Shown here: positions 16,123-36,337 of the stretch, one piece after another
Layout: the number at the start of each line of letters is the position of its first letter
Position numbering within the stretch: the first letter of the stretch is position 1
Source of the DNA: an uncultured archaeon
GTDB lineage: Archaea > Thermoproteota > Nitrososphaeria > Nitrososphaerales > Gagatemarchaeaceae
NCBI GenBank assembly: GCA_963799775.1
Contig: CAWCYD010000003.1
Location: forward strand, 1,376,001-1,440,000
Direction: 5' to 3'
DNA: 64,000 nt
Program-made: the position numbers and the translations under genes
The notes under the pieces: model-generated
Seen by the model: only the letters and a program-made list of their open reading frames with translations
Databases searched by the model: none
What the model was told of the DNA's origin: nothing

Positions 16123-16151
16123 GTTCTTAGACCTGATTGCGTTCAAATCCA
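16123..16151. repeat. motif B core (third, diverged copy)
   Basis: gttcttagacctgattgcgttcaaatcca versus gttcttagacgcaattgagttcaaatcca at 23619. Confidence 0.65.
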
Positions 16152-16185
16152 GATTCGGTTAGCGAAAATTGCTGAACGTTCGAGA

Positions 16186-16220
16186 CGGAAGGGATGCAAT
16201 TAATTATTTAAGAGAATCCG
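16186..16220. repeat. motif A, recombination-site-like, copy 1
   Basis: cggaag-GGATGCAATTA-attatt-TAAGAGAATCC-g; the 11-bp arms match 8/11 as an inverted repeat; 2 bp from the partner stop codon. Confidence 0.8.
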
Positions 16221-16222
16221 CT

Positions 16223-17077
16223 CTACGAGCGCACATTGAAGTGTAATATCACAGCTTGTCCCCATTCGTCGGCAACGGCGATTGTGTAAACGCCGGCGAC
16301 AAAGGCAGTCACAGTAGGTGTAAGCTCGCTCTGTTGTCGGCCATAATCGATGAACGGAGGTTGTTGAATGGAGGTATTCGTTAGCGGGTTAAATCCTCCA
16401 ACACGAAGGGAATTGTTCAGAAGATCCCAGTATCCCCCAGTGGAGAAACTGTTGGCAATTTCGTACGAACCCAAGGACGTACCATTTGTAACACCAGACA
16501 TAAGACTAGCTTGTGAGCTATTTTGACCGAAGCTCAGTTGATTTACGTCCTGGACTTCATGGCAATTGACGCGCGGAATGTAGATATCGGCAGCATTCGT
16601 AATGTTACCCATAACGAAGTTTCCCTTCAACACGACAACCTCGGCAGCAGTCGTAAAGTTCTCAGGCGCATAGGGATGCGTGCTAACGTATGAAGGGTTT
16701 GAGACGTATGCATTGGTGTAGAAACAGTCCGGCCACATGGCGAGCGGAATCCCTTGGAAAAGCCAGTTATCCGATGTTGAAATTGTGTTGAGCTGAAGGT
16801 GAGTGTTGAAGAGGGACACATTGGCCTCCAGAAATTGTCCCTCAACCAGTTCTGTTGCATTGATGGACAAAGACAACTGAATTCCCTCTGAATTGATCGT
16901 AGATGATGTCGCGCTTGAATGAATTCCTGAGGAAGGCTGCGACATGCTCGTTGAGTCTACCAACCTGTTTGGTGCTGGGAGTTTGTTGAGCTCAACCGCA
17001 GTAACGCCTACGACTATAATGGCAATAATGACCCCTGCTAATATCGAGTGGAAACGTTTTGGCATCATCGAGAGCAC
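16223..17077 (-). CDS. membrane-anchored protease-partner protein 1
   Basis: N-terminal TM, Ser/Thr linker, GIQLSLSINAT...NVSLFNT, C-terminal GVYTIAVADEWGQAVILHF shared by four paralogs. Confidence 0.8.
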   Translation of the reverse strand: MLSMMPKRFHSILAGVIIAIIVVGVTAVELNKLPAPNRLVDSTSMSQPSSGIHSSATSSTINSEGIQLSLSINATELVEGQFLEANVSLFNTHLQLNTISTSDNWLFQGIPLAMWPDCFYTNAYVSNPSYVSTHPYAPENFTTAAEVVVLKGNFVMGNITNAADIYIPRVNCHEVQDVNQLSFGQNSSQASLMSGVTNGTSLGSYEIANSFSTGGYWDLLNNSLRVGGFNPLTNTSIQQPPFIDYGRQQSELTPTVTAFVAGVYTIAVADEWGQAVILHFNVRS

Positions 17078-17199
17078 TTCAAAGGGGGTCGCTCACTGTT
17101 ATCGTTAGTCTCTTGAATATGCTTGACTCCCAATTCCACATTGCGAGTTGATGAGTCAAGTCCTTTCTGCACCTCAGACTCTGGCACTCATGCTCTTTG

Positions 17200-18363
17200 T
17201 TATTCTCCCTGTGAGGTCTCGTACAGTTCGGTGAAATCACCGCCGGACGGGACACTGGGGCATACGTTCCAATAGTAGGTACTGCCTTGGCACGAGTAAG
17301 TAGATGTCGATTGGTTCATGACATCGATATAGGCATAGCCACTTCCGATGCTGTACTCATTATCAGAAGTGTCCTCGTAAAGTCCACTGAATACAGATAG
17401 CTCGCTGAATTGGGGCAGGCCGTAGTAATAGCCGCCACTTGCGTATGAGGGGCGCTCTCCCATGAAATCCGAATAGTGAGCAACTCCCAATCCATAGCTG
17501 CTCGACGAATCGCCTCCGCACGTTTGTTGAGAGGCGTAGTCGTAAATTGAGGCTTCATACTCATTGTCACCAATAGGGTTGACTTGGGCGGAGACATGGT
17601 CGCCTTCGGAAACGTCGTAACAGAGAGTTGGAGTGCCAGGATAGAATTCATACCACATTTGATAGTAGCCATAGGTGTAATCTGAGCACTCATCTTGGCA
17701 ATAGGAATCGGTGCCAGCCTGAGCTATGTATCCGGCATGATACGCTGCAGCGTCAGTCTCGCCGACCCAGAAGCTGAACTCACACTCATAATCGTAGTCA
17801 GGACTATCGCACAGGTTATAACCCGGACTTCCGCCCGAATATCCGGGCCCTTCGATTTCGGGGACATACCAATCTGCTGAATTGAAGGAAAATCCATGCG
17901 CCTCGAAGTATTCGTACCCGACGTAATTTTCGCTGTTTTCTGTCGTATGCATTGAGCCGTGATAAATAAAGGTGTTAAGAACGGTAGTTGCTGCTGGGTT
18001 CTCAATCATTTCAAGGGTATATTCTGATCCATTCTCGGCCCTGAGTGTATAAGCGACCCCTACATTCTGCAACGACACGACGCAGTTCGAATCCCAATGA
18101 CCGAGGAAAAAGATACTATTGAATGAGATGCTATAAATTGCCGCTGCATAAGATGCAACAACAGGGGATGCAGTGGTATTTGCGAGCTTCTGGTCGATTG
18201 ACGCTAGAACCTCTTGATTGCCCTGACTTAGGGCAGCGGTAGTGCAATTGGATGCCGAAGACGGCGTAGCGTTCAGTGATGGGATTCTTGAGACCATCAA
18301 AAGACCGAGAACTACAAGAATGAGAGCCGCACCGAAATTAGTCTTAGCCGCCTGCCTGAACAA
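17200..18363 (-). CDS. secreted G1-family (eqolisin-like) glutamic peptidase 1
   Basis: Signal peptide, pro-domain, NYVGY, WYVP, FWVG, IAQAGT (catalytic Q), WYEFYP, GDHVSAQV, FMGERP (catalytic E), LPQF. Confidence 0.8.
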   Translation of the reverse strand: MFRQAAKTNFGAALILVVLGLLMVSRIPSLNATPSSASNCTTAALSQGNQEVLASIDQKLANTTASPVVASYAAAIYSISFNSIFFLGHWDSNCVVSLQNVGVAYTLRAENGSEYTLEMIENPAATTVLNTFIYHGSMHTTENSENYVGYEYFEAHGFSFNSADWYVPEIEGPGYSGGSPGYNLCDSPDYDYECEFSFWVGETDAAAYHAGYIAQAGTDSYCQDECSDYTYGYYQMWYEFYPGTPTLCYDVSEGDHVSAQVNPIGDNEYEASIYDYASQQTCGGDSSSSYGLGVAHYSDFMGERPSYASGGYYYGLPQFSELSVFSGLYEDTSDNEYSIGSGYAYIDVMNQSTSTYSCQGSTYYWNVCPSVPSGGDFTELYETSQGE

Positions 18364-18713: not shown

Positions 18714-18742
18714 GGGGCCGGAAGGGATGCAATTAATTATTT
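18714..18742. repeat. motif A copy 2 (right arm degenerate)
   Basis: ggggccggaagggatgcaattaattattt. Confidence 0.75.
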
Positions 18743-19049
18743 GAGACTTGAGCATAATTCTCGCCTGACATCATAGCCAATTCTGGTTGAGATGGCTTGC
18801 TAAGGGTCTCCTATCTCATGAGATTCATTGGTCAATGGCTCCCAAGAGTAGGACACTTCCTAGGAGGATGTTGCTCTCCGAGTCCTTCCTTATTGGGATT
18901 CTACGTCTAATCGAATTGATTCCTTGGCCAACAATACCCGCCAAGAAGAAGAGAGGCAGACGTATGTCTACCCGCATATCGTCATGCTCAGGTGCTTTAT
19001 AGTCAGGATCTGGATGAGGATTCCGAGCGACAATGCGCTCCATTCGTTC

Positions 19050-19752: not shown

Positions 19753-20550
19753 TCAAGTGACTTGGAAATGCAGAATCACGGCTCGACCCCACTCGTCGCA
19801 TACTGCCACCGTGTATACTCCAGGAACGAAGGGAGTAGCAACAGGAGGTTCGATTGAAGGGGTATAACGCACGTATGCAATATATCCCATAATAGAGGAC
19901 GCATTCCAAGATCCGTCGGTGACATAGTAATTCGCCAGTCTGATTGGACCCAAAGTCTCGTTCGTTGGTGGCGGTGCAAGGCCATTCACGAGGCCCGTGA
20001 GGTTCGCAATAGAACTCGATGGTTGAAACACTACGTGATCTATCACCCCGTTGCCTTCCTCACAACTGAGCGTTGCGTGGAACGAGTTCGTTATGCTCGA
20101 AATATTGTCAAGGGTATAGTCTCCCTTGACCACGTCTGCGTAGACGGGCGCAGCAAAGATATTCTTCGAAGGGGTGGCCGTTCCAAAGCAATCTCCCCAT
20201 ACTGCGAATGAGACACCGCCGAATGGCCATTCCATTGCAGTGGGAATGGTATTTACAACAGGCAAAGTGTTGAATAGAGAGATGTTGAGTTCCAACGACT
20301 GCCCGACGGTCAACTGAGTGGCGTTAATCGAAAGGGTCAATTGAAGGCCACTTGGATTGGTCGCCGATTTTGTATCCTCCAACGCGCTCGAGAAATTCGT
20401 AGATGTAATTTGACTCGTTGAAGACTCTGATTTTGAAGATGACGGACTAGTTGCTGTTGGCGGAGAGTAGTCTCCCTTCAGTTTGACTACAAGTGATGTG
20501 ATGATGAGCACAACAAGTATTCCAACCGCAATTTCGCGCGAATACTTCAC
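19753..20550 (-). CDS. membrane-anchored protease-partner protein 2
   Basis: GLQLTLSINATQLTVGQ...PGVYTVAVCDEWGRAVILHF. Confidence 0.8.
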   Translation of the reverse strand: MKYSREIAVGILVVLIITSLVVKLKGDYSPPTATSPSSSKSESSTSQITSTNFSSALEDTKSATNPSGLQLTLSINATQLTVGQSLELNISLFNTLPVVNTIPTAMEWPFGGVSFAVWGDCFGTATPSKNIFAAPVYADVVKGDYTLDNISSITNSFHATLSCEEGNGVIDHVVFQPSSSIANLTGLVNGLAPPPTNETLGPIRLANYYVTDGSWNASSIMGYIAYVRYTPSIEPPVATPFVPGVYTVAVCDEWGRAVILHFQVT

Positions 20551-20614
20551 CGTACTCCACCAACAAACCCTTTCGAGAAGCAGGGACTTGTATTGCTACT
20601 TCTTACTGAACGTT

Positions 20615-21819
20615 TCAATAGCCATAGTCGTTCTCGTACGTCAATGTGAAGTCGCCGCTTGAGTCCACGCTGCTCGGGCAGACGTTCATATAATACGGGC
20701 TGCCACTTCCTCCACTACAGGACACTGTTTGGCTCTGGTCCAAGTCGATGTAGTCGAAGTAGTTGGGGCTATTAGTGATTGTGTAACAGTATTCCTCCCA
20801 ACTACAATAGTAACCTCCCGTCACACTAATCTGGCTGAAATCTGGGATCCCATACGAAGTGGAGGCCTCGCTTGACCCTACTCCAGGGACACTCAGCCTC
20901 GAATTTGGCGTAGTATGCTTCACCCATGGCAAAATTGCTCGGCTCGTAGCCGGTGCAGCCCTGTAGTGTCGTAGCGTCATAGATGCTTGCTTCGTAGTAT
21001 TCGCTGTCATACGTACTTTCGGTAACGTAGGCTTCAATTGTGTTGCCTGAGCCAATGTAATCACAAAGGTTGTAGTATTGAGTAGGGTAGAGGTCTTCCC
21101 AGAACTGATACCACATGACGTAGTAGTGACTGGAGCATGACCCATAGCAGTAAGAATCCGTGCCCGTCTGATCAAGGTATGCCCCGGTTTGCTCCCCGTA
21201 CGTGCTTTCGCCAACCCACATTGAAACCAGGCATGTAGAGTTCTCATAGTTGCTGCAATCGGCACCACCGCTACTTACCGACGGCACATTCCAGTCGGCC
21301 CCGTCATAATACATGCCATAACCATACGAATCCTTGTACTCTACCCCCGACCACATGCTGTTTGGATAAGAGGAATGAGCGATTTGTGGGTAGACACTAG
21401 CCCCCAGAACCGTCGTAAGGCTTGGATTCAAGGTTACTTCAAGCACGTAGGTGCCCCTTTGTCGCCATGAGGTTGTAGTCAACGCTGACATTCTCAATGG
21501 AAATGCTGCATGAAGAGTCCCAGGTTGTCCGATAGAATATGCTGTCGAAAGAACTACTGCTGTAGTTTATTGCGTACGCGGCCAGAACTGGGGCGGCCAG
21601 CTGTTTGGCTACATCTTGATTGATGTTGACCGCTGCCTGTTGAGTACTCTCCGAGAGTACTTTGGCAGAACAGGTGGATGCAGAGGTGGACCCACCGCTT
21701 GTCGCAGTTGCCAATACGGGTTCAAATCTGGCCGCGATGAGAACTGCGAAAAGACAAAGAACCGTCGAAATTTCCAGCCAGGAGTTTCCACCGATTGTTC
21801 CGCTACGTGAGAAAATCAC
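20615..21819 (-). CDS. secreted G1-family glutamic peptidase 2 (two frameshifts)
   Basis: Three overlapping ORFs give the signal/pro-domain, WSGVEY, WNVP, MWVG, LDQTGT, FEAE, YGIPDF and NVCPSSV. Confidence 0.75.
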
Positions 21820-22330: not shown

Positions 22331-22386
22331 ACTTCCATAGACACCTCGAGAACAGGGTATATCTTGAAACACGCTGTGTTTATGAT

Positions 22387-22441
22387 AAATAGCTGATTTC
22401 ATCGTGTCCTTTCCCTCCCGCCTTCTCGCGAGCCCATAGCA
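22387..22441. repeat. motif C copy 1
   Basis: Pyrimidine tract followed by GCGAGCCCATAGCA. Confidence 0.75.
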
Positions 22442-23606: not shown

Positions 23607-23648
23607 GTGCGGTCGCCGGTTCTTAGACGCAATTGAGTTCAAATCCAC
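23607..23648. repeat. motif B / att-like repeat 1
   Basis: gtgcggtcgccggttcttagacgcaattgagttcaaatccac; the first 13 nt equal the tRNA-Gly 3' end. Confidence 0.85.
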
Positions 23649-23739: not shown

Positions 23740-24141
23740 CTAAGTCTGATTCAAGGCCTCAGACACAGATAGGATTCTGATCTTCTTGAACCTCTTCAGG
23801 CGAAGGAGAGCCCTGTCGCCTGTGACAATGAAATCTGCATGTCCATCGTAAGCTGTGTTGAGAATCATGTTGTCGGAAGGATCACTCTCAATCGCTCGGA
23901 AATCTGACTCGACTCTCACCATGTCGCCAGACTGCATTAGTGCAAGAACGACTCTTTGAATCTCGTCTTCGCCGGTCTTGAATTTCGGTCTGCGCAGCAC
24001 AGTTTCGGTTTCTTTCAGGATGAATTCAGATATCACAAGAGAGAATCGGTTCTCTATTCCGCGGTCAAGCAATTCTCTAGGTTTGCCCTTAGAGATTGCA
24101 GCACTAACAATTACGTTGGTGTCGAGGACAACCCGATACAT
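23740..24141 (-). CDS. vapC: PIN-domain toxin (PIN_3-type VapC)
   Basis: VVLDTNVIVSA, DPSDNMILNTA and IVTGD motifs. Confidence 0.9.
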   Translation of the reverse strand: MYRVVLDTNVIVSAAISKGKPRELLDRGIENRFSLVISEFILKETETVLRRPKFKTGEDEIQRVVLALMQSGDMVRVESDFRAIESDPSDNMILNTAYDGHADFIVTGDRALLRLKRFKKIRILSVSEALNQT

Positions 24142-24145
24142 CCAA

Positions 24146-24525: not shown

Positions 24526-24567
24526 GTGCGGTCGCCGGTTCTTAAACGCAATTGGGTTCAAATCCAC
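24526..24567. repeat. motif B / att-like repeat 2
   Basis: 42-bp direct repeat of 23607-23648 with 2 mismatches; preceded by a degenerate tRNA-end copy gtgcggtctaggaatttgaac (24504-24524). Confidence 0.85.
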
Positions 24568-27620: not shown

Positions 27621-27710
27621 CCGCCTCATTCTTCTAGAACGCTATTCTTTTGTCAGCTCTCAAAATTAACAGAGGATTCAAGCTTGGATTCTGCAAAACT
27701 GTGGCGATTT

Positions 27711-28326: not shown

Positions 28327-28376
28327 AGAACAGCCCAATTCTCCCCCTTTCTTCCCCTCCCTTGCGAGCCCATAGC
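28327..28376. repeat. motif C copy 2
   Basis: agaacagcccaattctccccctttcttcccctcccttGCGAGCCCATAGC. Confidence 0.8.
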
Positions 28377-28434
28377 TGCGAATTGCGCTTGCGATTTAGT
28401 GGCGCTCGCAGGCGATCTTCGGGATTCTCCTAGG

Positions 28435-28473
28435 TGGGCTGGAAGGGATGCAATTAATTATTTAGGCGAATCC
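28435..28473. repeat. motif A copy 3
   Basis: tgggctggaag-ggatgcaatta-attatt-taggcgaatcc. Confidence 0.8.
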
Positions 28474-28590
28474 TCTTGCGTAGTAAACATTTTGCCCCTG
28501 TTCATTTCCGGCGCTTGAGGAACCGCTCTGCTTTCGCCGTCAGGGCATGGAATGTGAGGGAGCAAAGTGGAAATACTGGTTGCCGTACTC

Positions 28591-29403
28591 TCAGCCGGTG
28601 GCCTTGACTTCGAAATGAAGCACGACCGCTTGACCCCATTCGTCGCACACACCAACTGTATAGACACCTGGCTCGAAGGACGAATAACGAGGAACATTTG
28701 TTGAGTTGACATAGACGGCTTCGTATGGTACTCTCGACAAAGATGGTGATGATTCGTTTGCCTGGGCGAGAAGAGCTGTCGTATTCCAAACGCCTCCGAC
28801 TGCAAAGTGAGATGAAATGTGAAAAGGCCCTGCGGTTAATGGTCCTTGGATGTCAGCATCAAGATAGAGGCTGACCTCACTGTCTTGCGGTTCGAATTTG
28901 TAGGTTAGGTCGTTCACCAATCCATAATCTATAGGTGGGCAGGAGGGGAGCTTTGGGTTCCCTGGCGTTGTTGCAAGCTGTGCTACTGAGAGGTTACCAG
29001 AGACGATGATCACCTCGATTGGAGATGGCCAGAATGCATAGGTGCCTCTGCACAATGGATCCCATATGGCAACTGGAACCCCGTGAAATAGCCAGTTCGA
29101 ATTCGCTGAAATGTTAGCGTCAGTGGGTAATGTGTTGAAGAGCGATAGTGACACATTTAACTCCTGTCCGACTTGGAATTTCGTTGAATTTAGAGATGCC
29201 TCGAGTCTTAGACCATTCGCTAGACTAGTCGAGTCGTTGACAGTCGATTCGGCAGCGAAGGATGATGTTGGGGTGAGTGAAGAAGTTGTTTGCGGCCAAA
29301 ATGGGCCAACTCGGAAAATCAAGATTGCCGAAACGAGGATAGTTATGACGAAGAGCGCTGTCAAGGAAATGAATATGCCCTTGTGTCGAAAAGTTACTCG
29401 CAT
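28591..29403 (-). CDS. membrane-anchored protease-partner protein 4
   Basis: GLRLEASLNST...VGQELNVSLSLFNTLP...PGVYTVGVCDEWGQAVVLHF. Confidence 0.8.
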   Translation of the reverse strand: MRVTFRHKGIFISLTALFVITILVSAILIFRVGPFWPQTTSSLTPTSSFAAESTVNDSTSLANGLRLEASLNSTKFQVGQELNVSLSLFNTLPTDANISANSNWLFHGVPVAIWDPLCRGTYAFWPSPIEVIIVSGNLSVAQLATTPGNPKLPSCPPIDYGLVNDLTYKFEPQDSEVSLYLDADIQGPLTAGPFHISSHFAVGGVWNTTALLAQANESSPSLSRVPYEAVYVNSTNVPRYSSFEPGVYTVGVCDEWGQAVVLHFEVKATG

Positions 29404-29441
29404 GGATCAGGACAAGCGCCCCAAACTTGTTCTCACTGGTG

Positions 29442-30638
29442 CTAGTATCCATCAGTAGCTTCGAGGGTTTCCGTAAAACTCTGGCTCGAAACGCTGCTAG
29501 GGCAAACGTTGACATGAATTGTGGTTCCCAAGCATGAAGTGGTTGTTGAGGTTAGGTCTGTGTAGTCGGCCGTATTCCAGTTATTGTCAATGCCGTAATA
29601 GTTGTTTGCCGAGTCATAGTAATAGCCATCCCAAGGGCTCAAGCCGTAGAAACCTGGCAGTGCTGTATTGCCCGGAGTTTCAGCCATGAATTGTGCGTAG
29701 TATGAGCCCCACGAAGAAAGGTCGAAACCCGATGGTGAGTAGCTAGAACAGCCTATCGAAAGAGTATAGTCATCCACAGTGACGTAGTATTCTGTACTGG
29801 ATGCCTTCTCGACTTCGCCGGCCACTTCGTCGCCGTATTGGGTGCCGCCACACACGTTCTGGTTAGCTGTTGGGTACCATTCATACCAATAGTTGGCCTT
29901 GTAGTTTGATGTGCAGGTAAATTTGCAGTAAGAATCAGTTCCAGTCTGCGCCAAATAACCGGCACCATTACAACCTGAAAGTGACTGATTTCCTCCCTGG
30001 CAATATGTTTCGCCAACCCAAAACGAGATGTCGCACTCGTAGTTATGAGAACTTTGGTCGCAGTTGTTCGTAGAGCCGTCGTATCCAGCACCATCGACAT
30101 ATGGTACGTCCCAGTATGCTCCGTTTTGTTCCACTTGATCGCCATTGGTGGGGGAGTACTCATACCCACTCCAGCCGTATTTGCCGGTAGGATTGAGGTT
30201 CCCGCTGTGAGTGAGACTCAAGTACACCATGCTGTTCAGGACACTCGCGAGGTTTGGACTGACTGCGACTTCGAGGGTGTATGATGATCCATTGAGTGCC
30301 CTCATGTCAAAGTCCACACTTACATCTTTCAGAGAAAGATTGCAGTTCGAGTTCCAAGAATAGCTGTAGAAGGTGCTATCATAATGGATCCCGGTATACA
30401 TAGAGTTGTATCCTGCCAAGACAGGAATGGCCGTTGCGTTAGCGGTTGCTTCGTTCAATGTTCCGTGTATCGCTTGAACCTGTTGGTCCAGCACACTTGG
30501 CGCACAAGTGGAGCTTGACAGTCCATTGGCTCCAGCCGGGAGTCCTCGGGACAAGAGAAGAAGAGCGAGAATGCCGAAGATGATGACAGCGTTCAAGTGA
30601 CGCCCTGTGCCGAGCACAGTGCGATTTGAGAAGAGCAA
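29442..30638 (-). CDS. secreted G1-family glutamic peptidase 4
   Basis: GWSGYEY, WDVP, FWVG, LAQTGT, WYEWYP, FMAETP, LPGF and NVCPSSV. Confidence 0.8.
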   Translation of the reverse strand: MLFSNRTVLGTGRHLNAVIIFGILALLLLSRGLPAGANGLSSSTCAPSVLDQQVQAIHGTLNEATANATAIPVLAGYNSMYTGIHYDSTFYSYSWNSNCNLSLKDVSVDFDMRALNGSSYTLEVAVSPNLASVLNSMVYLSLTHSGNLNPTGKYGWSGYEYSPTNGDQVEQNGAYWDVPYVDGAGYDGSTNNCDQSSHNYECDISFWVGETYCQGGNQSLSGCNGAGYLAQTGTDSYCKFTCTSNYKANYWYEWYPTANQNVCGGTQYGDEVAGEVEKASSTEYYVTVDDYTLSIGCSSYSPSGFDLSSWGSYYAQFMAETPGNTALPGFYGLSPWDGYYYDSANNYYGIDNNWNTADYTDLTSTTTSCLGTTIHVNVCPSSVSSQSFTETLEATDGY

Positions 30639-30818
30639 ACGTTCGGAGGATTCTTCTGGCTTGCCTAAATTTCTTATGAAGAAAGTCTATGTAGGCTTCT
30701 TCCGAGACGACAAAAATGGACGAGAAACTGGTTTCGCCCATTACCGTTGGCGCGGGTATACTGGTAGATTGACTGGATGCCCCAAAGGTATAGCCTCTAA
30801 TGATTCGGAATTCGTCAT

Positions 30819-30858
30819 AGAAGCCCAATTTCCCCTTCTCTCCCCCTCCTCGCGAGCC
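30819..30858. repeat. motif C copy 3 (truncated)
   Basis: agaagcccaatttccccttctctccccctcctcGCGAGCC. Confidence 0.7.
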
Positions 30859-30880
30859 AAGGTCCGAAGGATTAGTTTAA

Positions 30881-30921
30881 GTGGGCCGGAAGGTATGCAA
30901 TTAATGTTTTAAGAGAATCCG
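30881..30921. repeat. motif A copy 4
   Basis: gtgggccggaag-gtatgcaatta-atgttt-taagagaatcc-g. Confidence 0.8.
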
Positions 30922-31423: not shown

Positions 31424-32095
31424 TCAGAAACCCTCGTTGGCCGGGTACTCCGTGTTGAACTGCTTGAACAGCGTTACCTCTCGAGAAATTAGCCACTGTC
31501 CTGTCTGATACATGTACGTATACGTTCCCGAAGTAGTGACGTTGTAATACCCGATTGTCTTCCCATACCCCTGAAAGGACAATTCTGCTTGAACAATCAC
31601 AGTCGCATTGAGCAATCGGGTCGCGTTCACAGAATTAATTGAATAGGTGACATTCTGGACAGACAAGAATGTCTCCCACGCGAATTCGATCGACGAGGAG
31701 CTGTTATAGATTCCACCCAGACCCTGCGTATTCCCCACCCACTTCATCGTCGCATTCGACGCATAGCCAGCAGCCACCCCAGTGGCATTCCGCTCACTTA
31801 CAGGTGAGAGATGCGACTCGAATGCCTGGATTACAACGCTCACGTTACTCTCCTCAAGGTATGATGATTCGAGGTTCGTGTATGCGTTTGCCTGCGAACT
31901 AAGGCTCGAAGCGAGAACTGCACTTTCTGAGATGAGACTCGAATTCCGACTCTGCAGAGAGCCTGCTATAGTGTATTCGTAAGCCCCTAACGAAGAGATG
32001 ACAACAATAAGGACAACCAGTGGCACGACAATCTTTGACCATGGCTTGCGCCCTTTACTTGTCTCTGGAAGCAAAACGCTCGCTGAAAAATCCAT
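31424..32095 (-). CDS. membrane-anchored protein with NTF2/SnoaL-like domain (alternative partner)
   Basis: N-terminal TM and coiled segment, then YASNATMKWVG...GQWLISRE (NTF2-like end). Confidence 0.6.
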   Translation of the reverse strand: MDFSASVLLPETSKGRKPWSKIVVPLVVLIVVISSLGAYEYTIAGSLQSRNSSLISESAVLASSLSSQANAYTNLESSYLEESNVSVVIQAFESHLSPVSERNATGVAAGYASNATMKWVGNTQGLGGIYNSSSSIEFAWETFLSVQNVTYSINSVNATRLLNATVIVQAELSFQGYGKTIGYYNVTTSGTYTYMYQTGQWLISREVTLFKQFNTEYPANEGF

Positions 32096-32158
32096 GGCGC
32101 TATCAGAAAAGTCGTAGCCTCGCCCTAGAAATGTATCATCGCTGATGTCCGCTTAGAG

Positions 32159-33355
32159 TTAACAGCTGTACTCGACAGCGAAGAAGCCGGTGCAACTGCT
32201 ACTGTTGTAATATTCTGTGAAAGTGCCATAGCTGTAACCCATCGGCTCGCTCATCGAAGATGTTGCTGTGTTCTGGTAACCACCATTGACCATTTCAGTA
32301 CCGTGCCCCCAATCACTAAGATAATTAGGGTACTGGTCGAACTTGGTTCCAGTTCCAGTTCCCATTTCGAGGTCCGTAAAAGTAACCGTCGAGAATTTTG
32401 CCAGTATATAGGTACCTTCTGTCCCTGCAGGCTCCTCGACCACGGTATCCGCATAGTGCGGGACAGCAGCTAAGCTATAATCATCAGTGCAGGCTTGATT
32501 ATTGTACTCGTTGATGACGTCCACGAAGTAGTCGCTTCCTGACATGCTAAATTGGGCATTAGATCCGGTCTGTGCGTAGATGTGATTCCCCGCGCTCACC
32601 GTTATCCCACAGTAATTGATACTCGGTTGCTGGCCAGCACCGTTATCACCGCCGTAGAAGTACTCGGTAAGGGCTGTATCTTGTGTTGTACCTGTGCTAG
32701 AAGTATAGTTCCCTTGAATCCCTCCCCGAACCAGTACATTGGTCCCTCGCCAAAGATAGTCTGTGCCAAAGTATGTGCCATTTTGTAACCCGGTCCATTC
32801 GTCAACCAGGCACTCGGTAACATTATCCTGTACCTTTGACCAGTAGCAGCCGCTCGAAATCGAAGAAAGTGTAGGAGTGCTCCAATATGCCGCTGAGTAA
32901 GTCACTGTTACGCTAGAAGGGGTAGAGGCATTGGCCACATAAAATCCTCCTTGATAATCTACATCGCTTACAGGTATGCCCGAGGCGGATGCATACCCGT
33001 GCCTTATGACATTGTATACCACTCCCGACGTGGGATTCACCGTCATTGTTAGAATGTATACATCTTGTCCATCCTTTTGAAGCAAGAAGTTCGCGGCGGC
33101 ATCGTGCCAAGTGACGGTGCAGTTTGTAGGATTAAGGTTCCAGTCGTTGTCGAAGCCCATAAATGTAGAGTTGTAGCCGGAGACCGCGTTCTGGTATTGG
33201 GGTGACTGAGCCGCAAAAGTCTGCACTGCTGCGAAACTGACGATGTTATTCTCGGATCCCATCTCAGACGCAAGCTTCAGCGGTGTGCATACGGCAAATG
33301 TGTCCGCCATAGCTGTTCCGGCAGTTAACAGCATCGCGATGGGAGAAATCACCAA
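32159..33355 (-). CDS. divergent G1-family peptidase 5 (true start possibly 33408 via frameshift)
   Basis: YQGG, YWSTP, EWTGL, LVRGG (R at the usual Q position), AGNHIYA, VVEEP and LAKFSTVTF. Confidence 0.65.
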   Translation of the reverse strand: MVISPIAMLLTAGTAMADTFAVCTPLKLASEMGSENNIVSFAAVQTFAAQSPQYQNAVSGYNSTFMGFDNDWNLNPTNCTVTWHDAAANFLLQKDGQDVYILTMTVNPTSGVVYNVIRHGYASASGIPVSDVDYQGGFYVANASTPSSVTVTYSAAYWSTPTLSSISSGCYWSKVQDNVTECLVDEWTGLQNGTYFGTDYLWRGTNVLVRGGIQGNYTSSTGTTQDTALTEYFYGGDNGAGQQPSINYCGITVSAGNHIYAQTGSNAQFSMSGSDYFVDVINEYNNQACTDDYSLAAVPHYADTVVEEPAGTEGTYILAKFSTVTFTDLEMGTGTGTKFDQYPNYLSDWGHGTEMVNGGYQNTATSSMSEPMGYSYGTFTEYYNSSSCTGFFAVEYSC

Positions 33356-33763
33356 CAGAAAGAGAAGCGGGATGCTGGCAGGCGGATGAAGGAACCGATG
33401 ACTTTCATGGATAACTCTTGCTGGAGACTCTTCTATTAAAAGTTAGTGTTTACACTGTAATACAGTACAATAATTCATGCGGAGTCGAAATATATTTCCT
33501 TCTAATCGTCTTCGACGATCGTCGTCACGCGAAATGATCCTTCAGCATAAACTCGGAATCAGGTGGTCGACCTACCTGCGGAGCTTTCTCTCGGGAGCTT
33601 ACGAGTTAGAGTCGCATGGACGACTCACCGTACACATCACAGGCACGTTCATAACAGGCTGAGCAGCCAGCAGCCAAGGAGACACTTTTGAATAACATCG
33701 GCCAAAGCCATGAAAAAAGATACCCCTCCAATGGGTGTATCCTGTTGTAGGCCTGTTTTCTTC

Positions 33764-33816
33764 AGAATAGCTCAATTTATCCCCTTTCCCTCCCCCCTTC
33801 ACGCGAGCCCATAGCA
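33764..33816. repeat. motif C copy 4
   Basis: agaatagctcaatttatcccctttccctccccccttcacGCGAGCCCATAGCA. Confidence 0.8.
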
Positions 33817-33896: not shown

Positions 33897-34733
33897 TTAG
33901 CATTGGACGGAGCTTGAATAACTGAATGATTGGTCCCAGTAAGTGGCAATACCGGAGCTGTATTCGCTCCAGCAGCCGTAATACATGTTAGAACTTTCAG
34001 CCGTTCCCACGTAGCTCGGAGAGCCCCAATAGTTGGTGAGGTCGTTTGAACTTCCAGCATACATGGTGCCGCTTCCGGAACTGAAGTCGGCAGTAAGGTT
34101 GTTCATCCCGCACCAACACGGATTAGATCGGAGCCAGTACCAGTCGCCATATGTCTCAGGATAGAACGAGCCGCTCGTACCTCCAGCGCCGCTTCCGCCT
34201 CCGTTGACCGACCACGTTATCTCGTCGACATAGCCGCTTGAGTCTGTCCATTCGTCGATATTGTATGGAGCTCCGCTTGTGAGAGCGCCGGTAACCTGGG
34301 TCCCGGAACCAGAGTCGTCCTTCTCAGCTACAAGGGCGCCAGTGTTCGTGTTGGCTACGTAGAAATAGTATATGATTGCCGGCGGGGAAACCTGGAAGTC
34401 TTCAGCGATCGAGAATTGCAGCCAGTCTGCGTTTGTCTGGTACGAATTGGATTCGGACACGTCTGGATTATATTGTAAGGTGAATGTATCATACCCAGTT
34501 TCGCCCGAGCTTCCTACAGTCCCAGCCATGTTTGAGGACAAATCCGAGCTAATGTAAGCATCGCCACTTGTTATGATGCAATCATTCGTCGATGAGCAGT
34601 CAAACTCACCGTCGCCATTCCCATAATAGAACCCATCTGAAGCTGGCCATGCCATCGCTTTGGCTACAAAGGCTGATGAAACGAGCAGCAGCCCAATAGC
34701 GCACGCGCCGACCAAGACAAGACTATGCCGCAA
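33897..34733 (-). CDS. secreted acidic thermopsin-like (putative glutamic) peptidase
   Basis: Signal peptide; FTLQYN, DWLQF and GTAESSN resemble the thermopsin SLQLN/WxQN/TxEx motifs. Confidence 0.5.
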   Translation of the reverse strand: MRHSLVLVGACAIGLLLVSSAFVAKAMAWPASDGFYYGNGDGEFDCSSTNDCIITSGDAYISSDLSSNMAGTVGSSGETGYDTFTLQYNPDVSESNSYQTNADWLQFSIAEDFQVSPPAIIYYFYVANTNTGALVAEKDDSGSGTQVTGALTSGAPYNIDEWTDSSGYVDEITWSVNGGGSGAGGTSGSFYPETYGDWYWLRSNPCWCGMNNLTADFSSGSGTMYAGSSNDLTNYWGSPSYVGTAESSNMYYGCWSEYSSGIATYWDQSFSYSSSVQC

Positions 34734-35550
34734 CTTTGATCCCCTGGCCCTGGATGTACAGTTGAACCGGCACCTGGGTGGCATTCGCCAACAGATTGCT
34801 CGGAAGCGAAGTGGATATGGCGGCAGCTCCCGTTGTTTCGTAGGACTTGAGCGTCCCGATAGGAGCAACCTGGACCCAGATTGGAGAGTTCGTGTATGCG
34901 GTGAAAGTTATCACAGAACCCGCGGCAAGAGAATTACCCAATTGTACCGCGACACCCGGGGTTTCGTTATCGGCGGTAAAGTTGGCCATCAGTTGATTCC
35001 CTGATATCACGGATGGTTCGCCGATCATTGTTGCCGCTTGGGCGTGGCTGTTTCCCAAGCGCTGGGTCATATGGGCCACAAGATTGCCATTCACATACAG
35101 CCCCATGTAGAGAGTGGTATTCGCACTCACGTCGTAGGGAAGGACATTGATGTTGACCGATAGTTCACCGGTGATACCTTGCGTTGTATTATGACTAGAG
35201 GAGACAAGCACGTTCGCAGGCATCTGCCATCCCTGAAAGCCCGCCGATGACAAAGTCATGCCAGGGGTGTTTCCGAAAAAGTAGAAGTCGCTTGGAGGAG
35301 GCAGAGCGAAGCCAGTGGATAAACTGCTACCGTTACTGGGAATACCATTAGGCGTACCTATCTCGGTTCCTCCAGACTGGCTGGCAGTCGAAGTAGCTGC
35401 GCTGGCATTCGTATTAGTTGCGATCCCATCTCCCTTGGACCCAGAGTACAGAAGATACGAGGAGGATCCAATCGCTGCAGCGGCGACCAAGAGAATTGAA
35501 AGTAGCGCGGACCTCGCTACTCCGGGTCTAGATGCCGCTACTAGCTTCAA
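34723..35550 (-). CDS. membrane-anchored Ser/Thr-rich hypothetical protein
   Basis: N-terminal hydrophobic helix, S/T linker and beta-rich domain; stop overlaps the next gene. Confidence 0.65.
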   Translation of the reverse strand: MKLVAASRPGVARSALLSILLVAAAAIGSSSYLLYSGSKGDGIATNTNASAATSTASQSGGTEIGTPNGIPSNGSSLSTGFALPPPSDFYFFGNTPGMTLSSAGFQGWQMPANVLVSSSHNTTQGITGELSVNINVLPYDVSANTTLYMGLYVNGNLVAHMTQRLGNSHAQAATMIGEPSVISGNQLMANFTADNETPGVAVQLGNSLAAGSVITFTAYTNSPIWVQVAPIGTLKSYETTGAAAISTSLPSNLLANATQVPVQLYIQGQGIKVAA

Positions 35551-35699
35551 TCACCCATGCTTAGCTCATAATAGTATATAATGTCAGGAGAATGTGACAT
35601 CCGGGATTTATTATCACGGTAGATTGTTACAGAAATGCGTTCCAGGCTTGGAGTCTTGAATCCAATGCCTTCTTCCGATGAGGGGTTAAGCCACTCTTC

Positions 35700-35999
35700 T
35701 TACTCTTCAATGGTAGACTTCTCTTCGTCTAGAAGGTCCTGGTATTTCTTTAGCCATCTCCTTCCTTTTGCAGTTATTGCGAATGTCTTCCGCCCTTCGC
35801 TTGAGGTAACGAGACGTATGTACCTGCCAGCCGCCAGCCTCGCCAAGTAGACTCCTTCAGCATCTCTATTCAGGTTGCAAGAAACCATTAGTCTGTGGGC
35901 CGTTGCGTTCCCCTTAACCAAGCATTGTAAAACGTCAGCTTGGATTTCTCTCCATACTCGCTTCTTGCGCTTCCCGGCCACCAACGCAATAATTGCCAA
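35700..35999 (-). CDS. winged-HTH regulator (HTH_45-like)
   Basis: KRVWREIQADVL...AHRLMVSCNLN...FAITAKG. Confidence 0.7.
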   Translation of the reverse strand: MAIIALVAGKRKKRVWREIQADVLQCLVKGNATAHRLMVSCNLNRDAEGVYLARLAAGRYIRLVTSSEGRKTFAITAKGRRWLKKYQDLLDEEKSTIEE

Positions 36000-36092
36000 A
36001 TACGTGAATCAAGGCGGCGATGTTTAAGGTTATTCCGTACGTTCACCCCAGCAACGCGACGGGTAGTCCGAGAAGCTACCTTCTTTTCGTCA

Positions 36093-36337
36093 AGAAGGCC
36101 CGATTTCTCTTCGTTTTCTCTCCCCCCTCTGGCGAGCCCATAGCAAGCAACACCCCTGCGAATCGAGCGAAGCGAGAATGAGCGGCCCCGCCCCGAAGCG
36201 GGGCGAAGGCGAAGTCCGAGCGGAGCGGCGAAGAGGGGGAAGCGAAGCGAGCGCAGCGAGCGGTGCCGAAGGCATCGCGGGGGGTGAATTCGCCGCGGGG
36301 CGAAGGACGAGCCTGAAGGGAGTTGCTTGCTATGGGC
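36093..36337. other. hairpin-rich origin-like element (full-length motif C)
   Basis: Perfect 16-bp IR GCCCATAGCAAGCAAC (36136-36151 and 36322-36337) encloses small hairpins and GCGAAGCGAG repeats. Confidence 0.65.

What the first reader, a model, noticed from the sequence alone, without database searches (positions are those of the whole stretch)
16123..36337. Cassette array of polymorphic secreted glutamic protease-partner modules delimited by two recurring DNA motifs
Seen: six co-oriented modules plus two remnants. Reading the minus strand, the typical unit is motif C (36093, 33764, 30819, 28327, 22387), an optional wHTH regulator, a protease, a membrane partner, then motif A (30881, 28435, 18714, 16186) or motif B. 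Boundary motifs are conserved at nucleotide level while the cargo proteins are strongly diverged. Known: integrons and dif modules stack cassettes at recombination sites. Inference: an undescribed archaeal cassette-capture system of non-autonomous mini-elements mobilised in trans by the island integrase and ATPase, stockpiling protease variants.
Basis: partly seen in the sequence, partly recalled or inferred. Interest (0 to 1): 0.9.

Follow-up and report, generated by a model that had tools for sequence, protein, structure and literature searches.

The report
Stacked integrative elements carrying protease operons
The recurring DNA motifs mark where mobile elements, some with no integrase of their own, inserted one behind another next to a tRNA gene of an uncultured soil archaeon, each bringing a secreted protease-like gene pair; this is a known way of building genomic islands, seen here in a new element family.

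Summary
Motif A (4 copies) and motif C (5 copies) are real, are not expected by chance, and bound co-oriented modules.

**Motif A is an attachment site.** Its last 15 nt (ATCCCTTCCGGCCCA) are the 3' end of tRNA-Ile(GAU). In the same genome and in relatives, tRNA-Ile plus this core on one side and motif A on the other flank 4-8 kb elements that carry a tyrosine integrase.

**A second att type** ("D6" plus CCGGCGACCGCAC) copies the 3' end of the tRNA at 40884-40977 and occurs at 24526, 23607 and, degenerate, at about 16111.

**The island** (16.1-40.9 kb) is therefore a tandem accretion: one autonomous element (integrase, DnaJ, 177-aa protein, FtsK/HerA-like ATPase) plus integrase-less cassettes.

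**Motif C** is not an att site or a core promoter. In full elements it is the 3' strand of the closing helix of a conserved structured block of about 260 nt. Similarity between related elements drops sharply about 60 nt past the start of C.

The integron analogy is not. The closest known kinds are cis-mobilizable elements formed by accretion, Dehalococcoides ssrA islands and tycheposons. The window's att cores are slightly decayed, and no activity was shown.

The parts
40884..40977 (-). tRNA whose 3' end (CCGGCGACCGCAC) is the core of the D6-type att site. It is the integration target of the island.
   Evidence: ARAGORN, (type undetermined). Sequence. Core repeats. The orthologous tRNA in G008 has only a 0.93-kb stub behind it.
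39562..40839 (-). Tyrosine integrase (425 aa) of the autonomous element, 44 nt downstream of the tRNA.
   Evidence: PHROG phrog_1 integrase, E 1.9e-11. No Pfam hit at 1e-3. 56% identical to the L001 integrase. Its first 290 aa are 23-63% and its last 135 aa 83-92% identical to the integrases beside motif-A sites.
36360..39551 (-). Backbone genes: DnaJ-domain protein (39144-39551), 177-aa protein (38526-39059) and AAA ATPase of 641 aa (36360-38285).
   Evidence: Pfam DnaJ 5.5e-27. AAA_22 5e-6, with weak HerA_C and FtsK hits. PHROG 'terminase large subunit', 3.9e-11. 84% amino-acid identity to the G017 copy.
36130..36345 (-). Conserved structured block (C' ... C). A long-range closing helix of about 22 bp encloses hairpins capped C(TTCG)G.
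   Evidence: 56 pairs, 96% of cells paired, 13 pairs with compensatory change against 5.7 +/- 1.5 in shuffles (0 of 500 shuffles reached it); slid controls gave 0-3. 13 copies in 9 of 41 genomes. No Rfam hit.
36083..36144 (-). Motif C copy 1: 3' strand of the closing helix plus a purine-rich tail.
   Evidence: Nucleotide similarity to five related elements ends at 36080-36083.
33897..35999 (-). Cassette 1: wHTH regulator (35700-35999) and two predicted secreted proteins (34723-35550 and 33897-34868).
   Evidence: Pfam HTH_45 5e-9. No family found for the other two. Unrelated to the cassette-1 cargo of G017.
33754..33815 (-). Motif C copy 2. No C' lies upstream of it.
31424..33355 (-). Cassette 2: divergent protease-like protein (32159-33355) and a 223-aa partner of a different family (31424-32095).
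   Evidence: hhalign of group A6 against group A5: 99.8%, E 5.8e-29. Genomic paralogs listed.
30869..30920 (-). A-type att junction: left arm (30897-30920), core ATACCTTCCGGCCCA (30882-30896) and shortened right arm CTTAAACTAATCC (30869-30881).
   Evidence: The right arm was read by eye; the script did not flag it.
30803..30864 (-). Motif C copy 3, truncated at its 5' end and starting 5 nt after the att right arm.
28591..30638 (-). Cassette 3: protease-like protein (29442-30638) and partner (28591-29403). A-type att junctions bound it on both sides.
28422..28474 (-). A-type att junction: left arm, core ATCCCTTCCAGCCCA (28435-28449) and shortened right arm CCTAGGAGAATCC.
   Evidence: Other metagenome contigs share only these roughly 35 nt (loose ends).
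28315..28376 (-). Motif C copy 4.
24819..28293 (-). Cassette 4: 77-aa ORF, wHTH (27744-27971), protease-like gene with one apparent frameshift (26330-27590), wHTH of 137 aa (25847-26260) and partner (24819-25694).
   Evidence: Run X1 has no cover at the frameshift.
24526..24565 (-). D6 arm plus att core CCGGCGACCGCAC: the distal end of the autonomous element E1.
23740..24427 (-). Toxin-antitoxin stub: MazE-like (24146-24427) and PIN (23740-24141), between two att cores.
   Evidence: Pfam PIN_3 4.3e-23 and MazE_antitoxin 3.3e-6. A similar 0.93-kb stub flanked by core repeats sits directly at the tRNA in G008; it has an ORF that looks PIN-like by eye only.
23607..23646 (-). D6 arm plus att core: start of the distal composite E3.
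   Evidence: 89% identical over 93 nt to the A-D6-att-C junction of G017.
22379..22440 (-). Motif C copy 5.
19753..21819 (-). Protease-like gene 2 (20615-21819, two apparent frameshifts) and partner 2 (19753-20550).
   Evidence: Short-read contigs lack one base at 20891 and one at 21453.
18714..18746 (-). A-type att: variant left arm plus core ATCCCTTCCGGCCCC, followed by a degenerate C-like stretch.
16223..18363 (-). Protease 1 (17200-18363, Peptidase_A4) and partner 1 (16223-17077).
   Evidence: Pfam PF01828, 44.2 bits against a cut-off of 22.3.
16111..16219 (-). Outer end of the island: A-type att (left arm 16196-16219, decayed core ATCCCTTCCGtctcg 16181-16195), a spacer, then a degenerate D6 and core (16111-16150).

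Best explanation
Region 16.1-40.9 kb is a composite genomic island. It was built by repeated site-specific integration (accretion) of one family of tyrosine-recombinase elements at a tRNA gene of an uncultured archaeon.

**The basic element.** A basic element reads: att, integrase, then optionally a DnaJ protein, a 177-aa protein and an FtsK/HerA-like ATPase, then a structured block ending in motif C, then a cargo operon of secreted or membrane proteins, then att.

**Motif A** is the cargo-side att site. It has a 24-nt arm (GGATTCTCTTAAATAATTAATTGC) followed by a 15-nt copy of the 3' end of tRNA-Ile(GAU). Where a shortened right arm follows it (30869-30920 and 28422-28474), it resembles the attP-like junction between two units integrated in tandem.

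**A second, homologously built att type** (D6 arm plus CCGGCGACCGCAC) copies the 3' end of the tRNA at 40884-40977. It bounds E1 (40.9 to 24.5 kb), a toxin-antitoxin stub, and E3 (23.6 to 16.1 kb).

**The cassettes.** Some units have no integrase: cassette 3 is the clear case, and the G017 second cassette and E3 are similar. They keep only att, motif C and cargo. By sequence they are non-autonomous, att-flanked elements that related integrases encoded elsewhere in the genome could move in trans.

**Motif C.** Its own role is open. It marks the backbone/cargo junction, where cargo is exchanged between otherwise near-identical elements. The likely route is homologous recombination between C copies of tandem units, working together with the att site at the other end.

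**Shown versus inferred.** Shown: the identity of the sites, the layout, the breakpoints and the distribution. Inferred: the order of events, mobilisation in trans, the role of C, and protease function.

**Confidence by part.** Motif A is an att site: about 0.9. The island arose by accretion: about 0.7. Any specific role for C: below 0.4.
For: 1. **Core identity.** The last 15 nt of motif A are identical to the 3' end of tRNA-Ile(GAU) in L027, L028 and L033, and at G000 C3:1349007.
2. **Same-genome element.** In G000, tRNA-Ile plus core plus right arm plus integrase (C3:1349007 downwards) and motif A (C3:1342050) flank an element of about 7 kb with an exact 15-nt repeat.
3. **Site classes over the 14 sequences scanned (window plus 13 loci).** One search flagged 4 attL-type sites (tRNA T-loop, core, right arm); 13 sites with left arm and core that the script did not flag for a right arm (four in the window, nine elsewhere, of which L027 and L031 run on into similar sequence, read by eye as native tRNA-downstream flank); and 2 sites followed by a full right arm (L024 5850 with a left arm; L025 10301, whose left arm is degenerate and was not flagged). 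One search adds a fifth attL at C3:1349007. By eye I read a shortened right arm (13 nt) at window 30896 and 28449.
4. **Arms.** The left and right arms are inverted repeats of 12-20 nt around the core (read by eye).
5. **D6-type core.** The 13-nt core is exact at the tRNA (40885), at 24526 and 23607, and in L003 and L024.
6. **Integrase types.** Integrases beside A-type sites are mostly 82-99% identical to each other, block by block, among the four full-length ones; two more are cut short by apparent frameshifts, L027 to 317 aa (79-89% over the blocks it covers) and L028 to 99 aa (uninformative). The window's integrase, which sits beside the D6-type site, shares only 23-63% over its first 290 aa.
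7. **Breakpoints.** The G017 backbone is 82% identical at nucleotide level over 4385 nt and stops at 36082. Four more elements stop at 36080-36083. The cargo beyond that point is unrelated.
8. **Relative with a nearly empty site.** In G008 the same tRNA is followed only by a 0.93-kb stub flanked by core repeats, with an ORF that looks PIN-like by eye, then by the ortholog of window 613-2280.
9. **Distribution.** Motif A is in 9 of 24 other genomes of the family and 0 of 16 genomes of other families. Motif C is in 7 of 22 genomes of the genus. Reversed-pattern controls gave 0.
10. **Other contexts.** Other contigs of the metagenome run share only motif A or only C and then diverge.
Against: - No tRNA-Ile or A-type attL heads the window array. 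The A-type sites lie inside an element whose own ends are D6-type, so their arrival needs an extra step, such as a secondary-site insertion or recombination between elements of the two types.
- The right arms at 30869-30881 and 28422-28434 are shortened to 13 nt and were read by eye.
- Every A-type core in the window has at least one mismatch to the tRNA-Ile core (1, 1, 1 and 3). Six of the nine non-window left-arm-plus-core sites are exact. The array may therefore be a fossil.
- The cassette 1/2 junction has no att. Cassette 4 ends in D6, not A.
- No excision circle was seen. The single joint 23648->16178 comes from one contig at depth 3 with 38 nt on its shorter side, and it does not sit at the att cores.
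- None of 22 metagenome contigs with an exact motif-A core showed a right arm or a C within 400 nt downstream. 17 of the 22 had at least 371 nt to look at.
- Protease-partner pairs also occur at six other places in the chromosome with no motif A left arm, no motif C and no D6 arm within 8 kb.
Confidence: 0.72

Rival explanations
1. The integrase-less cassettes never moved as mini-circles. Full elements integrated in tandem, and their integrase-to-ATPase backbones were later deleted, leaving att-C junctions. Cargo differences come from homologous exchange at C and att between resident elements.
For: Full elements carry the same att and C parts in the same order. The G017 junction A-D6-att-60 nt-C still looks like a collapsed element boundary. 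Pre-C sequences of the cassettes keep a faint likeness to the 3' end of the structured block (read by eye). Module exchange between tandem integrated archaeal elements by homologous recombination is described in PMC8371274 (passage read).
Against: At least four independent junctions (30864, 28376, G017 14078, and window 23607 with its leader) would need deletions ending at nearly the same two points, with no direct repeat there to drive them. C' and C are inverted, not direct, repeats.
Confidence: 0.25
2. This is the first reader's model: a dedicated, integron-like capture platform in which motifs A and C are the paired recombination sites of cassettes stockpiled by the island's own integrase and ATPase.
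For: Cassettes are short (2.4-3.8 kb), co-oriented and bounded by conserved sites. Cassette number varies between genomes.
Against: Motif A is an ordinary tRNA-derived att, also found singly at tRNA-Ile in at least 5 genomes. C shows no likeness to att and is one strand of a structured block. The island's integrase sits beside the other att type. Several cargo genes have AT-rich boxes 24-37 nt upstream of their starts (by eye). 0 of 22 further motif-A sites are stacked.
Confidence: 0.08
3. The array arose in place by tandem duplication of one protease-partner operon. Motifs A and C are conserved only because they are a terminator, a promoter or an operator.
For: The family is large in this genome: about 10 protease-like and about 20 partner-like loci by tblastn. 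wHTH regulators sit in several cassettes.
Against: Motif A's core equals a tRNA 3' end and flanks integrase elements in other genomes. The same motifs bound unrelated cargo (L001 and L002). The paralogs are only 30-46% identical while the motifs are 75-100% identical. C lies about 200 nt upstream of the promoter-like box of 29442-30638.
Confidence: 0.04

Closest known systems
Cis-mobilizable elements (CIMEs) and site-specific accretion of ICEs/IMEs in streptococci (recalled; the reviews PMC5704250 and PMC7563491 were seen only in the listing)
   Same: Att-flanked units without an integrase lie in tandem with an autonomous element of the same att type. The junctions between units look like attP.
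   Different: This is an archaeal host with a different integrase family and no conjugation genes. The units are very small (2.4-3.8 kb) and share a second conserved non-coding element (C). Mobilisation has not been shown.
Dehalococcoides ssrA-specific genomic islands (PMC3146451; passages read)
   Same: Multiple tandem islands lie behind one small-RNA gene, each bounded by a short direct repeat of its 3' end. Some lack the integration module. Together they stockpile paralogous enzyme-plus-membrane-partner operons (rdhAB there, protease-like plus partner here).
   Different: There the integrase is a serine recombinase and the target is tmRNA. Here it is a tyrosine recombinase, with two tRNA-derived att types mixed in one island.
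Tycheposons of Prochlorococcus (bioRxiv 10.1101/2020.12.28.424599; passages read)
   Same: tRNA-targeting tyrosine-recombinase elements with small integration and replication modules plus exchangeable cargo. Later arrivals push earlier ones further into the island. Partial tRNAs act as scars.
   Different: Those are bacterial, and no homology to them was tested here. No helicase or primase module was recognised in these elements.
Classical (pNOB8-type, lambda-paradigm) archaeal integrases and tandem integrated archaeal elements (PMC8371274 and PMC6563490; passages read)
   Same: The integrase gene stays intact, the att site lies in a tRNA 3' end, and arrays form by re-use of the site.
   Different: The family assignment of this integrase was not tested: there is no Pfam hit at 1e-3, and the supplementary tables of the review were not available. 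The att core here is short (13-15 nt).
Integrons
   Same: Co-oriented short cassettes separated by recombination sites.
   Different: There is no IntI/attI/Pc platform. The sites are not attC-type imperfect palindromes; each is an arm plus a tRNA-derived core. The cassettes appear to carry their own promoters.

Membership tests
tRNA-integrating tyrosine-recombinase element (lambda paradigm) | A tyrosine recombinase gene, intact, lies next to one att site. | tested here: met
   PHROG phrog_1 integrase, 1.9e-11. The gene starts 44 nt after the tRNA. Pfam Phage_integrase was not hit at 1e-3. The catalytic residues were not checked.
tRNA-integrating tyrosine-recombinase element (lambda paradigm) | The element is flanked by a tRNA gene and a direct repeat of its 3' end. 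| tested here: met
   Exact 15-nt repeat at C3:1349007 and C3:1342050. The same arrangement holds in L025, L027 and L028. Exact 13-nt repeat at 40885, 24526 and 23607.
tRNA-integrating tyrosine-recombinase element (lambda paradigm) | The site is unoccupied in a relative. | tested here: met
   In G008 the orthologous tRNA is followed by a 0.93-kb stub and then the ortholog of window 613-2280. In L033 the tRNA-Ile lacks the right arm.
tRNA-integrating tyrosine-recombinase element (lambda paradigm) | Excision to a circle, and integration activity. | not testable with these tools
   Only one DNA run, held as contigs, was available. It gave one ambiguous joint.
Cis-mobilizable (non-autonomous, att-flanked) element | Att sites on both sides and no recombinase or transfer gene inside. 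| tested here: met
   Cassette 3 (28422-30920) holds two genes between two A-type junctions. The G017 second cassette lies between a D6-att and an A site. The right arms are shortened and the cores have 1 mismatch each.
Cis-mobilizable (non-autonomous, att-flanked) element | Moved by a related integrase in trans. | not testable with these tools
   Two integrases of the type that sits beside A-type sites are encoded in the genome, at C3:47929-49200 and C3:1347668-1348939. No assay was possible.
Integron | An IntI-type integrase with adjacent attI and a promoter Pc driving promoterless cassettes. | tested here: not met
   The integrase sits at a tRNA-derived att. The cassettes have AT-rich boxes upstream of their first genes (by eye). 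No attI-like platform was found.
Integron | attC sites: imperfect palindromes, one per cassette, recombined as folded single strands. | tested here: not met
   Motif A is an arm plus a tRNA-derived core. Motif C alone has no consensus fold (-3 kcal/mol).
Peptidase family A4/G1 (glutamic peptidases) | Match to Pfam PF01828 above its gathering score. | tested here: met
   17200-18363 scores 44.2 bits against a cut-off of 22.3. 2 of 8 aligned members match at E <= 0.1. The remaining members are linked by homology: 23-47% identity in A5 (L029 only 17%), and hhalign 99.8% between A5 and A6.
Peptidase family A4/G1 (glutamic peptidases) | The catalytic Gln/Glu dyad is present. | not tested
   No reference alignment was on hand. 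PDB sequence searches with both profiles found nothing at E <= 1.
Peptidase family A4/G1 (glutamic peptidases) | Beta-sandwich eqolisin fold. | tested here: inconclusive
   The model has mean pLDDT 44.9, too poor to search with.
BsuPI-like / macroglobulin-domain protease inhibitor (considered for the partner) | Fold match clearly above background. | tested here: inconclusive
   Model pLDDT 63.9. VIA-align gave alpha2-macroglobulin MG domain Z 6.2 and Bacillus Ipi (3isy) Z 5.8, both below the roughly Z 8 noise level stated by the tool. Foldseek found nothing at E <= 0.001. The Atlas lead to BsuPI scored 0.86. No Pfam hit.

The most novel reading that the evidence does not exclude
The integrase-less cassettes are true hitchhikers that keep exactly the two cis-acting parts they need. 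One is an att site for a helper integrase. The other is the 60-nt C element, which in helpers is the closing strand of a structured RNA of about 260 nt, and which might be recognised by helper proteins (ATPase, 177-aa protein or wHTH) for replication, packaging or transfer, or might act as a recombination hotspot for cargo swapping. On this reading the lineage has an archaeal satellite-like cassette system that collects fast-diverging secreted protease/inhibitor-like pairs.
Probability: 0.18. Interest if true: 0.8.

Novelty: new variant of a known kind. Interest (0 to 1): 0.5.

Why it matters
- It gives a concrete, testable account of how an uncultured soil archaeon enlarges a family of secreted acid-protease-like enzymes and their membrane partners: by tandem capture of small att-bounded modules.
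- It defines a new integrative-element family found in 9 of 24 other genomes of the family searched. The family has two tRNA specificities, and these track a swap of the integrase's first 290 residues. That makes it a natural experiment on how archaeal integrases change targets.
- It turns up a conserved structured element of about 260 nt, with no Rfam family, at the backbone/cargo boundary.
- It also shows that conserved 'boundary motifs' around diverged genes should first be compared with tRNA 3' ends.

Tried and rejected
- **Motif A as promoter or terminator.** I first read its AT-rich part as a TATA box. I rejected this once the tRNA-Ile identity and the flanking of whole elements were seen.
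- **D6 as a tRNA fragment.** It has no proper T-arm. It is an att arm plus a 13-nt tRNA-derived core.
- **Motif C as core promoter, small ORF or stand-alone RNA.** The short ATG-led frames are not conserved; L002 has a stop at codon 3. Fifteen copies give no consensus fold. The promoter-like box of 29442-30638 lies about 200 nt downstream of C.
- **KOPS-like or G-quadruplex readings of the purine run in C.** These are only my recollection of motifs and were not tested.
- **Rfam.** No hit in the window at gathering scores, and none at E <= 1 for 15500-37000.
- **Viral origin.** The integrase has no relative in IMG/VR by this tool. The ATPase found only the G017 locus in genome contigs.
- **Protease fold.** The model was too poor (pLDDT 44.9), so no fold search was run. 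PDB sequence searches were blank. The homolog search found 6 proteins at E <= 1e-5, none with a Pfam family.
- **Partner fold.** Only weak beta-sandwich matches.
- **Low G+C as a sign of foreign cargo.** Cargo is 47-52% G+C against 53-59% for backbones. However, protease-partner pairs without motifs elsewhere in the chromosome are also 49-50%, so composition may reflect the protein family.
- **Expression.** No RNA holder was listed for 27000-36900.
- **Reads.** Only Logan contigs of one DNA run (X1, share 0.28) could be laid. Parts without cover say nothing.
- **Empty-site comparison.** In G007, G014 and G001 only the tRNA-side gene matched, so these were uninformative.
- **Supplements.** Supplementary tables of PMC8371274 (integrase families) and PMC6563490 could bear on whether this integrase family is already catalogued. 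They were not available.
- **Literature.** Searches for a prior description of this element family gave reviews and analogues only: (0 papers).

Full report
**Observation**

Both motifs are real. Motif A occurs four times in the window (16187, 18720, 28441, 30888; up to 3 mismatches in 24 nt). The 23-nt core of motif C occurs four times (22418, 28354, 33793, 36122). Each was expected 0.00 times in 100 shuffles. A fifth C copy, truncated at its 5' end, lies at 30842-30864.

All copies are oriented with the genes on the minus strand. There are five protease-like plus partner pairs and one module of other secreted proteins. The motifs are 75-100% identical, while the paralogous proteins are 30-46% identical.

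In the whole 2.47-Mb genome, motif A has only two further copies (C3:1342056 and C3:51430). Motif C has three (C3:49448, 96194, 1343869). Each of these again lies next to a pair of secreted-protein genes.

**What motif A is**

Reading the element strand, motif A is GGATTCTCTTAAATAATTAATTGC followed by ATCCCTTCCGGCCCA. These last 15 nt are exactly the 3' end of tRNA-Ile(GAU), covering the T-stem, the acceptor stem and the discriminator. This holds in three relatives and in this genome.

At G000 C3:1349007 the tRNA-Ile is followed by a right arm (CTTAAACTCTTAAGAGAATCC), an AT-rich box and an integrase gene. About 7 kb further on, the element ends in motif A at C3:1342050, with the 15-nt core repeated exactly.

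I scanned the window and 13 loci with a script:
- **attL type** (tRNA, core, right arm): 4 sites, plus a fifth at C3:1349007.
- **Left arm plus core, no right arm flagged by the script:** 13 sites. Four are in the window and nine elsewhere. Two of the nine (L027, L031) run on into similar sequence, which I read by eye as the native flank downstream of the tRNA. Six of the nine have exact cores.
- **Followed by a full right arm:** 2 sites. L024 5850 also has a left arm. At L025 10301 the left arm is degenerate and was not flagged.

The two arms are inverted repeats of each other (by eye). Motif A is therefore an att site: attR where it ends an element, and attP-like where two units abut.

In the window, the sites at 30869-30920 and 28422-28474 have left arm, core and a shortened 13-nt right arm. 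I read the right arms by eye; the script did not flag them. The site at 18714-18746 has a variant left arm. The site at 16181-16219 has a core that decays after ATCCCTTCCG, as expected at the outermost junction.

**The second att type and the island**

The repeat I call D6 (element strand GGATTTGAAC.CAATTGCGT.TAAGAA) is followed by CCGGCGACCGCAC. That 13-mer is the 3' end of the tRNA at 40884-40977. It is exact at 40885, 24526 and 23607, and also in L003 and in G017. A degenerate copy lies at 16111-16150. D6 plus core is built like motif A: a GGATT...AATTGC arm, then a tRNA-derived core (by eye).

The layout on the minus strand is:
- tRNA
- E1, running to att at 24526: integrase 39562-40839, DnaJ, 177-aa protein, ATPase 36360-38285, structured block and C, then four cassettes
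- a 0.92-kb MazE/PIN stub, running to att at 23607
- E3, running to the degenerate D6/att at 16111: leader, C at 22440, protease 2 and partner 2, A at 18714, protease 1 and partner 1, A at 16187

In the same-genus genome G008 the orthologous tRNA is followed only by a 0.93-kb stub flanked by the core repeat. The stub has an ORF that looks PIN-like by eye, which I did not test. Then comes about 2 kb, then the ortholog of window 613-2280. So roughly 2.3-40.9 kb of the window is extra relative to G008. E1 sits between the tRNA and the older stub, as expected if newcomers integrate at the tRNA.

**The element family**

Related elements with the same order of parts occur in G017, G015, G014, G022, G012, G008 and G004, and twice more in G000.
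- The integrase family is in 20 of 22 genomes of the genus and in 7 of 16 genomes from other families of the order, at E <= 1e-20.
- Motif A is in 9 of 24 other genomes of the family and in 0 of 16 from other families.
- Motif C is in 7 of 22 genomes of the genus.
- Reversed-pattern controls gave 0.

The organism is an uncultured archaeon. This rests on the record title of the same-genus genome G017 and on Atlas neighbours of the partner protein being 92-100% archaeal.

Integrases that sit beside A-type sites are mostly 82-99% identical to each other, block by block, among the four full-length ones. Two more are cut short by apparent frameshifts: L027 to 317 aa (79-89% over the blocks it covers) and L028 to 99 aa (uninformative). 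The window's integrase sits beside the D6-type site. It is 83-92% identical to them in its last 135 residues but only 23-63% in its first 290. That fits a swap of the DNA-recognition part together with the change of target; this is inference. The ATPase matches AAA_22, weakly HerA_C and FtsK, and a PHROG annotated as terminase large subunit.

**Motif C**

In full elements, C is preceded about 240 nt upstream by its inverted complement C', which lies right after the stop codon of the ATPase or, in L001 and L025, of the integrase. Between C' and C lies a G+C-rich stretch with hairpins capped C(TTCG)G.

Ten copies were aligned. They give a consensus structure of 56 pairs with 96% of cells paired. 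Thirteen pairs show compensatory change, against 5.7 +/- 1.5 in shuffles (0 of 500 shuffles reached it) and 0-3 in slid controls. In two copies (L026, L030) the variable part of the closing helix is mismatched. The block occurs 13 times in 9 of 41 genomes and has no Rfam match.

The inner cassettes (33815, 30864, 28376, 22440; L003; G017 14078) have only C and no C'. C alone has no consensus fold.

C is not the core promoter. The start of 29442-30638 has its own AAATTTAG box about 28 nt upstream, and that box lies about 200 nt downstream of C (by eye, using the recalled archaeal promoter geometry).

Nucleotide similarity between the window and five related elements ends at 36080-36083, about 62 nt after C begins. 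Beyond that point the G017 cargo is unrelated apart from a 46% identical wHTH. C therefore marks the point where cargo is exchanged. Its own biochemical role is unknown.

**Cargo**

- **Protease 1.** 17200-18363 meets Pfam Peptidase_A4 (44.2 bits against a cut-off of 22.3). Two of eight aligned relatives match.
- **Divergent group.** The group around 32159-33355 is homologous to these (hhalign 99.8%).
- **Not established.** Catalytic residues and fold could not be checked.
- **Partners.** Each has an N-terminal helix, a Ser/Thr-rich linker and a beta-sandwich. The best structural matches are a macroglobulin MG domain (Z 6.2) and the Bacillus intracellular protease inhibitor (Z 5.8). Both lie within the tool's stated noise. 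With the Atlas lead (0.86), this makes an inhibitor-like role a lead only.
- **Copy numbers.** tblastn finds about 10 protease-like and about 20 partner-like loci in the genome. Six protease-partner loci lie elsewhere with no motif A left arm, no motif C and no D6 arm within 8 kb.
- **Other cargo.** Other elements carry unrelated secreted proteins between C and A.

**How it most likely works**

- **Shown:** the sites, their tRNA origin, their positions at element ends and unit junctions, the breakpoints, and the near-empty site in a relative.
- **Inferred:** elements integrate at the tRNA through their integrase. Later arrivals push earlier ones outward. Units without an integrase but with att sites on both sides (cassette 3 is the clearest) either integrated as small circles with the help of an integrase encoded elsewhere, or are what remains of full elements after loss of the backbone. 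Homologous recombination between C copies of neighbouring units, together with att at the other end, would swap or stack cargo.

**Against current activity**

- Every A-type core in the window has at least one mismatch.
- The right arms are shortened.
- One junction has no att.
- The A-type sites lie inside a D6-type element with no tRNA-Ile at its head.
- None of 22 further metagenome motif-A sites is stacked.
- The one read-level joint (23648->16178; one contig, depth 3, 38 nt on its shorter side) has the topology of a circle or tandem copy of E3 but does not fall at the cores, so I leave it unexplained.

**Comparison and novelty**

The closest known kinds are:
- accretion of integrative elements with cis-mobilizable, att-flanked derivatives
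- the tandem ssrA islands of Dehalococcoides that stockpile rdhAB operons (PMC3146451, passages read)
- tycheposons (bioRxiv 10.1101/2020.12.28.424599, passages read)
- arrays of tyrosine-recombinase elements in archaea (PMC6563490 and PMC8371274, passages read)

It is not an integron.

New here are the element family itself, its two att specificities with a chimeric integrase, the very small cassettes that keep att plus C, the structured block, and the cargo. My literature searches found no description of this family. They cover only the open-access library, and supplements were closed.

Noticed in passing
window 36130-36345 (minus strand); also L001 3205-3470, L024 10400-10650 and eight further aligned copies: A conserved structured block of about 260 nt sits between the last backbone gene and the cargo. 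It has a closing helix of about 22 bp (C'/C) and inner hairpins with C(TTCG)G loops. 13 pairs show compensatory change. It has no Rfam family and is a candidate new non-coding RNA of integrative elements.
   Followed up: partly
window 20891 and 21453 (protease-like gene 20615-21819): Short-read contigs of run X1 lack one base at each of the two apparent frameshift places, so this 'pseudogene' is probably intact and the window has single-base assembly errors. The frameshift in 26330-27590 has no cover.
   Followed up: partly
window 23648 joined to 16178 (run X1): One contig (depth 3, 38 nt on its shorter side) goes back 7471 nt and joins the D6 arm at 23619-23648 to the sequence just before motif A at 16187. 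This has the topology of a circle or tandem copy of E3, but the join is not at the att cores. It could come from a related element in the same sample.
   Followed up: no
window 23607-24565 and L055 (G008:C11) 2545-3490: A stub of about 0.9 kb flanked by the 13-nt att core is present in both genomes. In G008 it lies directly at the tRNA. In the window it carries a PIN/MazE pair by Pfam; in G008 the ORF looks PIN-like by eye only. It looks like a tiny att-bounded toxin-antitoxin element that persists at the site.
   Followed up: partly
window about 2300-16100: This stretch is also absent between the tRNA and the helicase ortholog in G008. It holds a second integrase (8721-9776, Phage_integrase plus zinc ribbon), followed by a DnaJ protein (9788-10351) and a STAND NTPase (10367-11656). 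That is the same integrase-DnaJ-NTPase order as E1 but in the opposite orientation. A 49% identical integrase lies upstream of the G017 element.
   Followed up: no
window 39562-40839 compared with C3:47929-49200 and C3:1347668-1348939: The integrase is chimeric: its last 135 aa are 83-92% identical to the integrases beside tRNA-Ile-type sites, but its first 290 aa are only 23-63% identical. This coincides with the different att core.
   Followed up: partly
window 33523-33811 and L003 (C3:96199-96501): About 300 nt downstream of motif C, with no long ORF, are 74.6% identical between two cassettes with different cargo. A short frame of 17-20 codons is shared.
   Followed up: no
window about 21950-22330: Downstream of motif C at 22440, the frames read like fragments of a DDE (rve-type) transposase; the motifs are recalled from memory. 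The 73-aa ORF 22031-22252 gave no Pfam hit.
   Followed up: no
G000 C3:1740070-1743945 (L039): A protease-like plus partner-like pair lies directly downstream of a tRNA whose 3' end differs by one base from the A-type core, and a near-copy of the D6-type core follows it. This may be an old, decayed cassette.
   Followed up: no
L065, L074, window 18729-18760, L024 13840-13865: A variant left arm (GAATTATGC...TCTCAAATAATT) recurs in four places in front of the tRNA-Ile core. This suggests a sub-lineage of the att arm.
   Followed up: no
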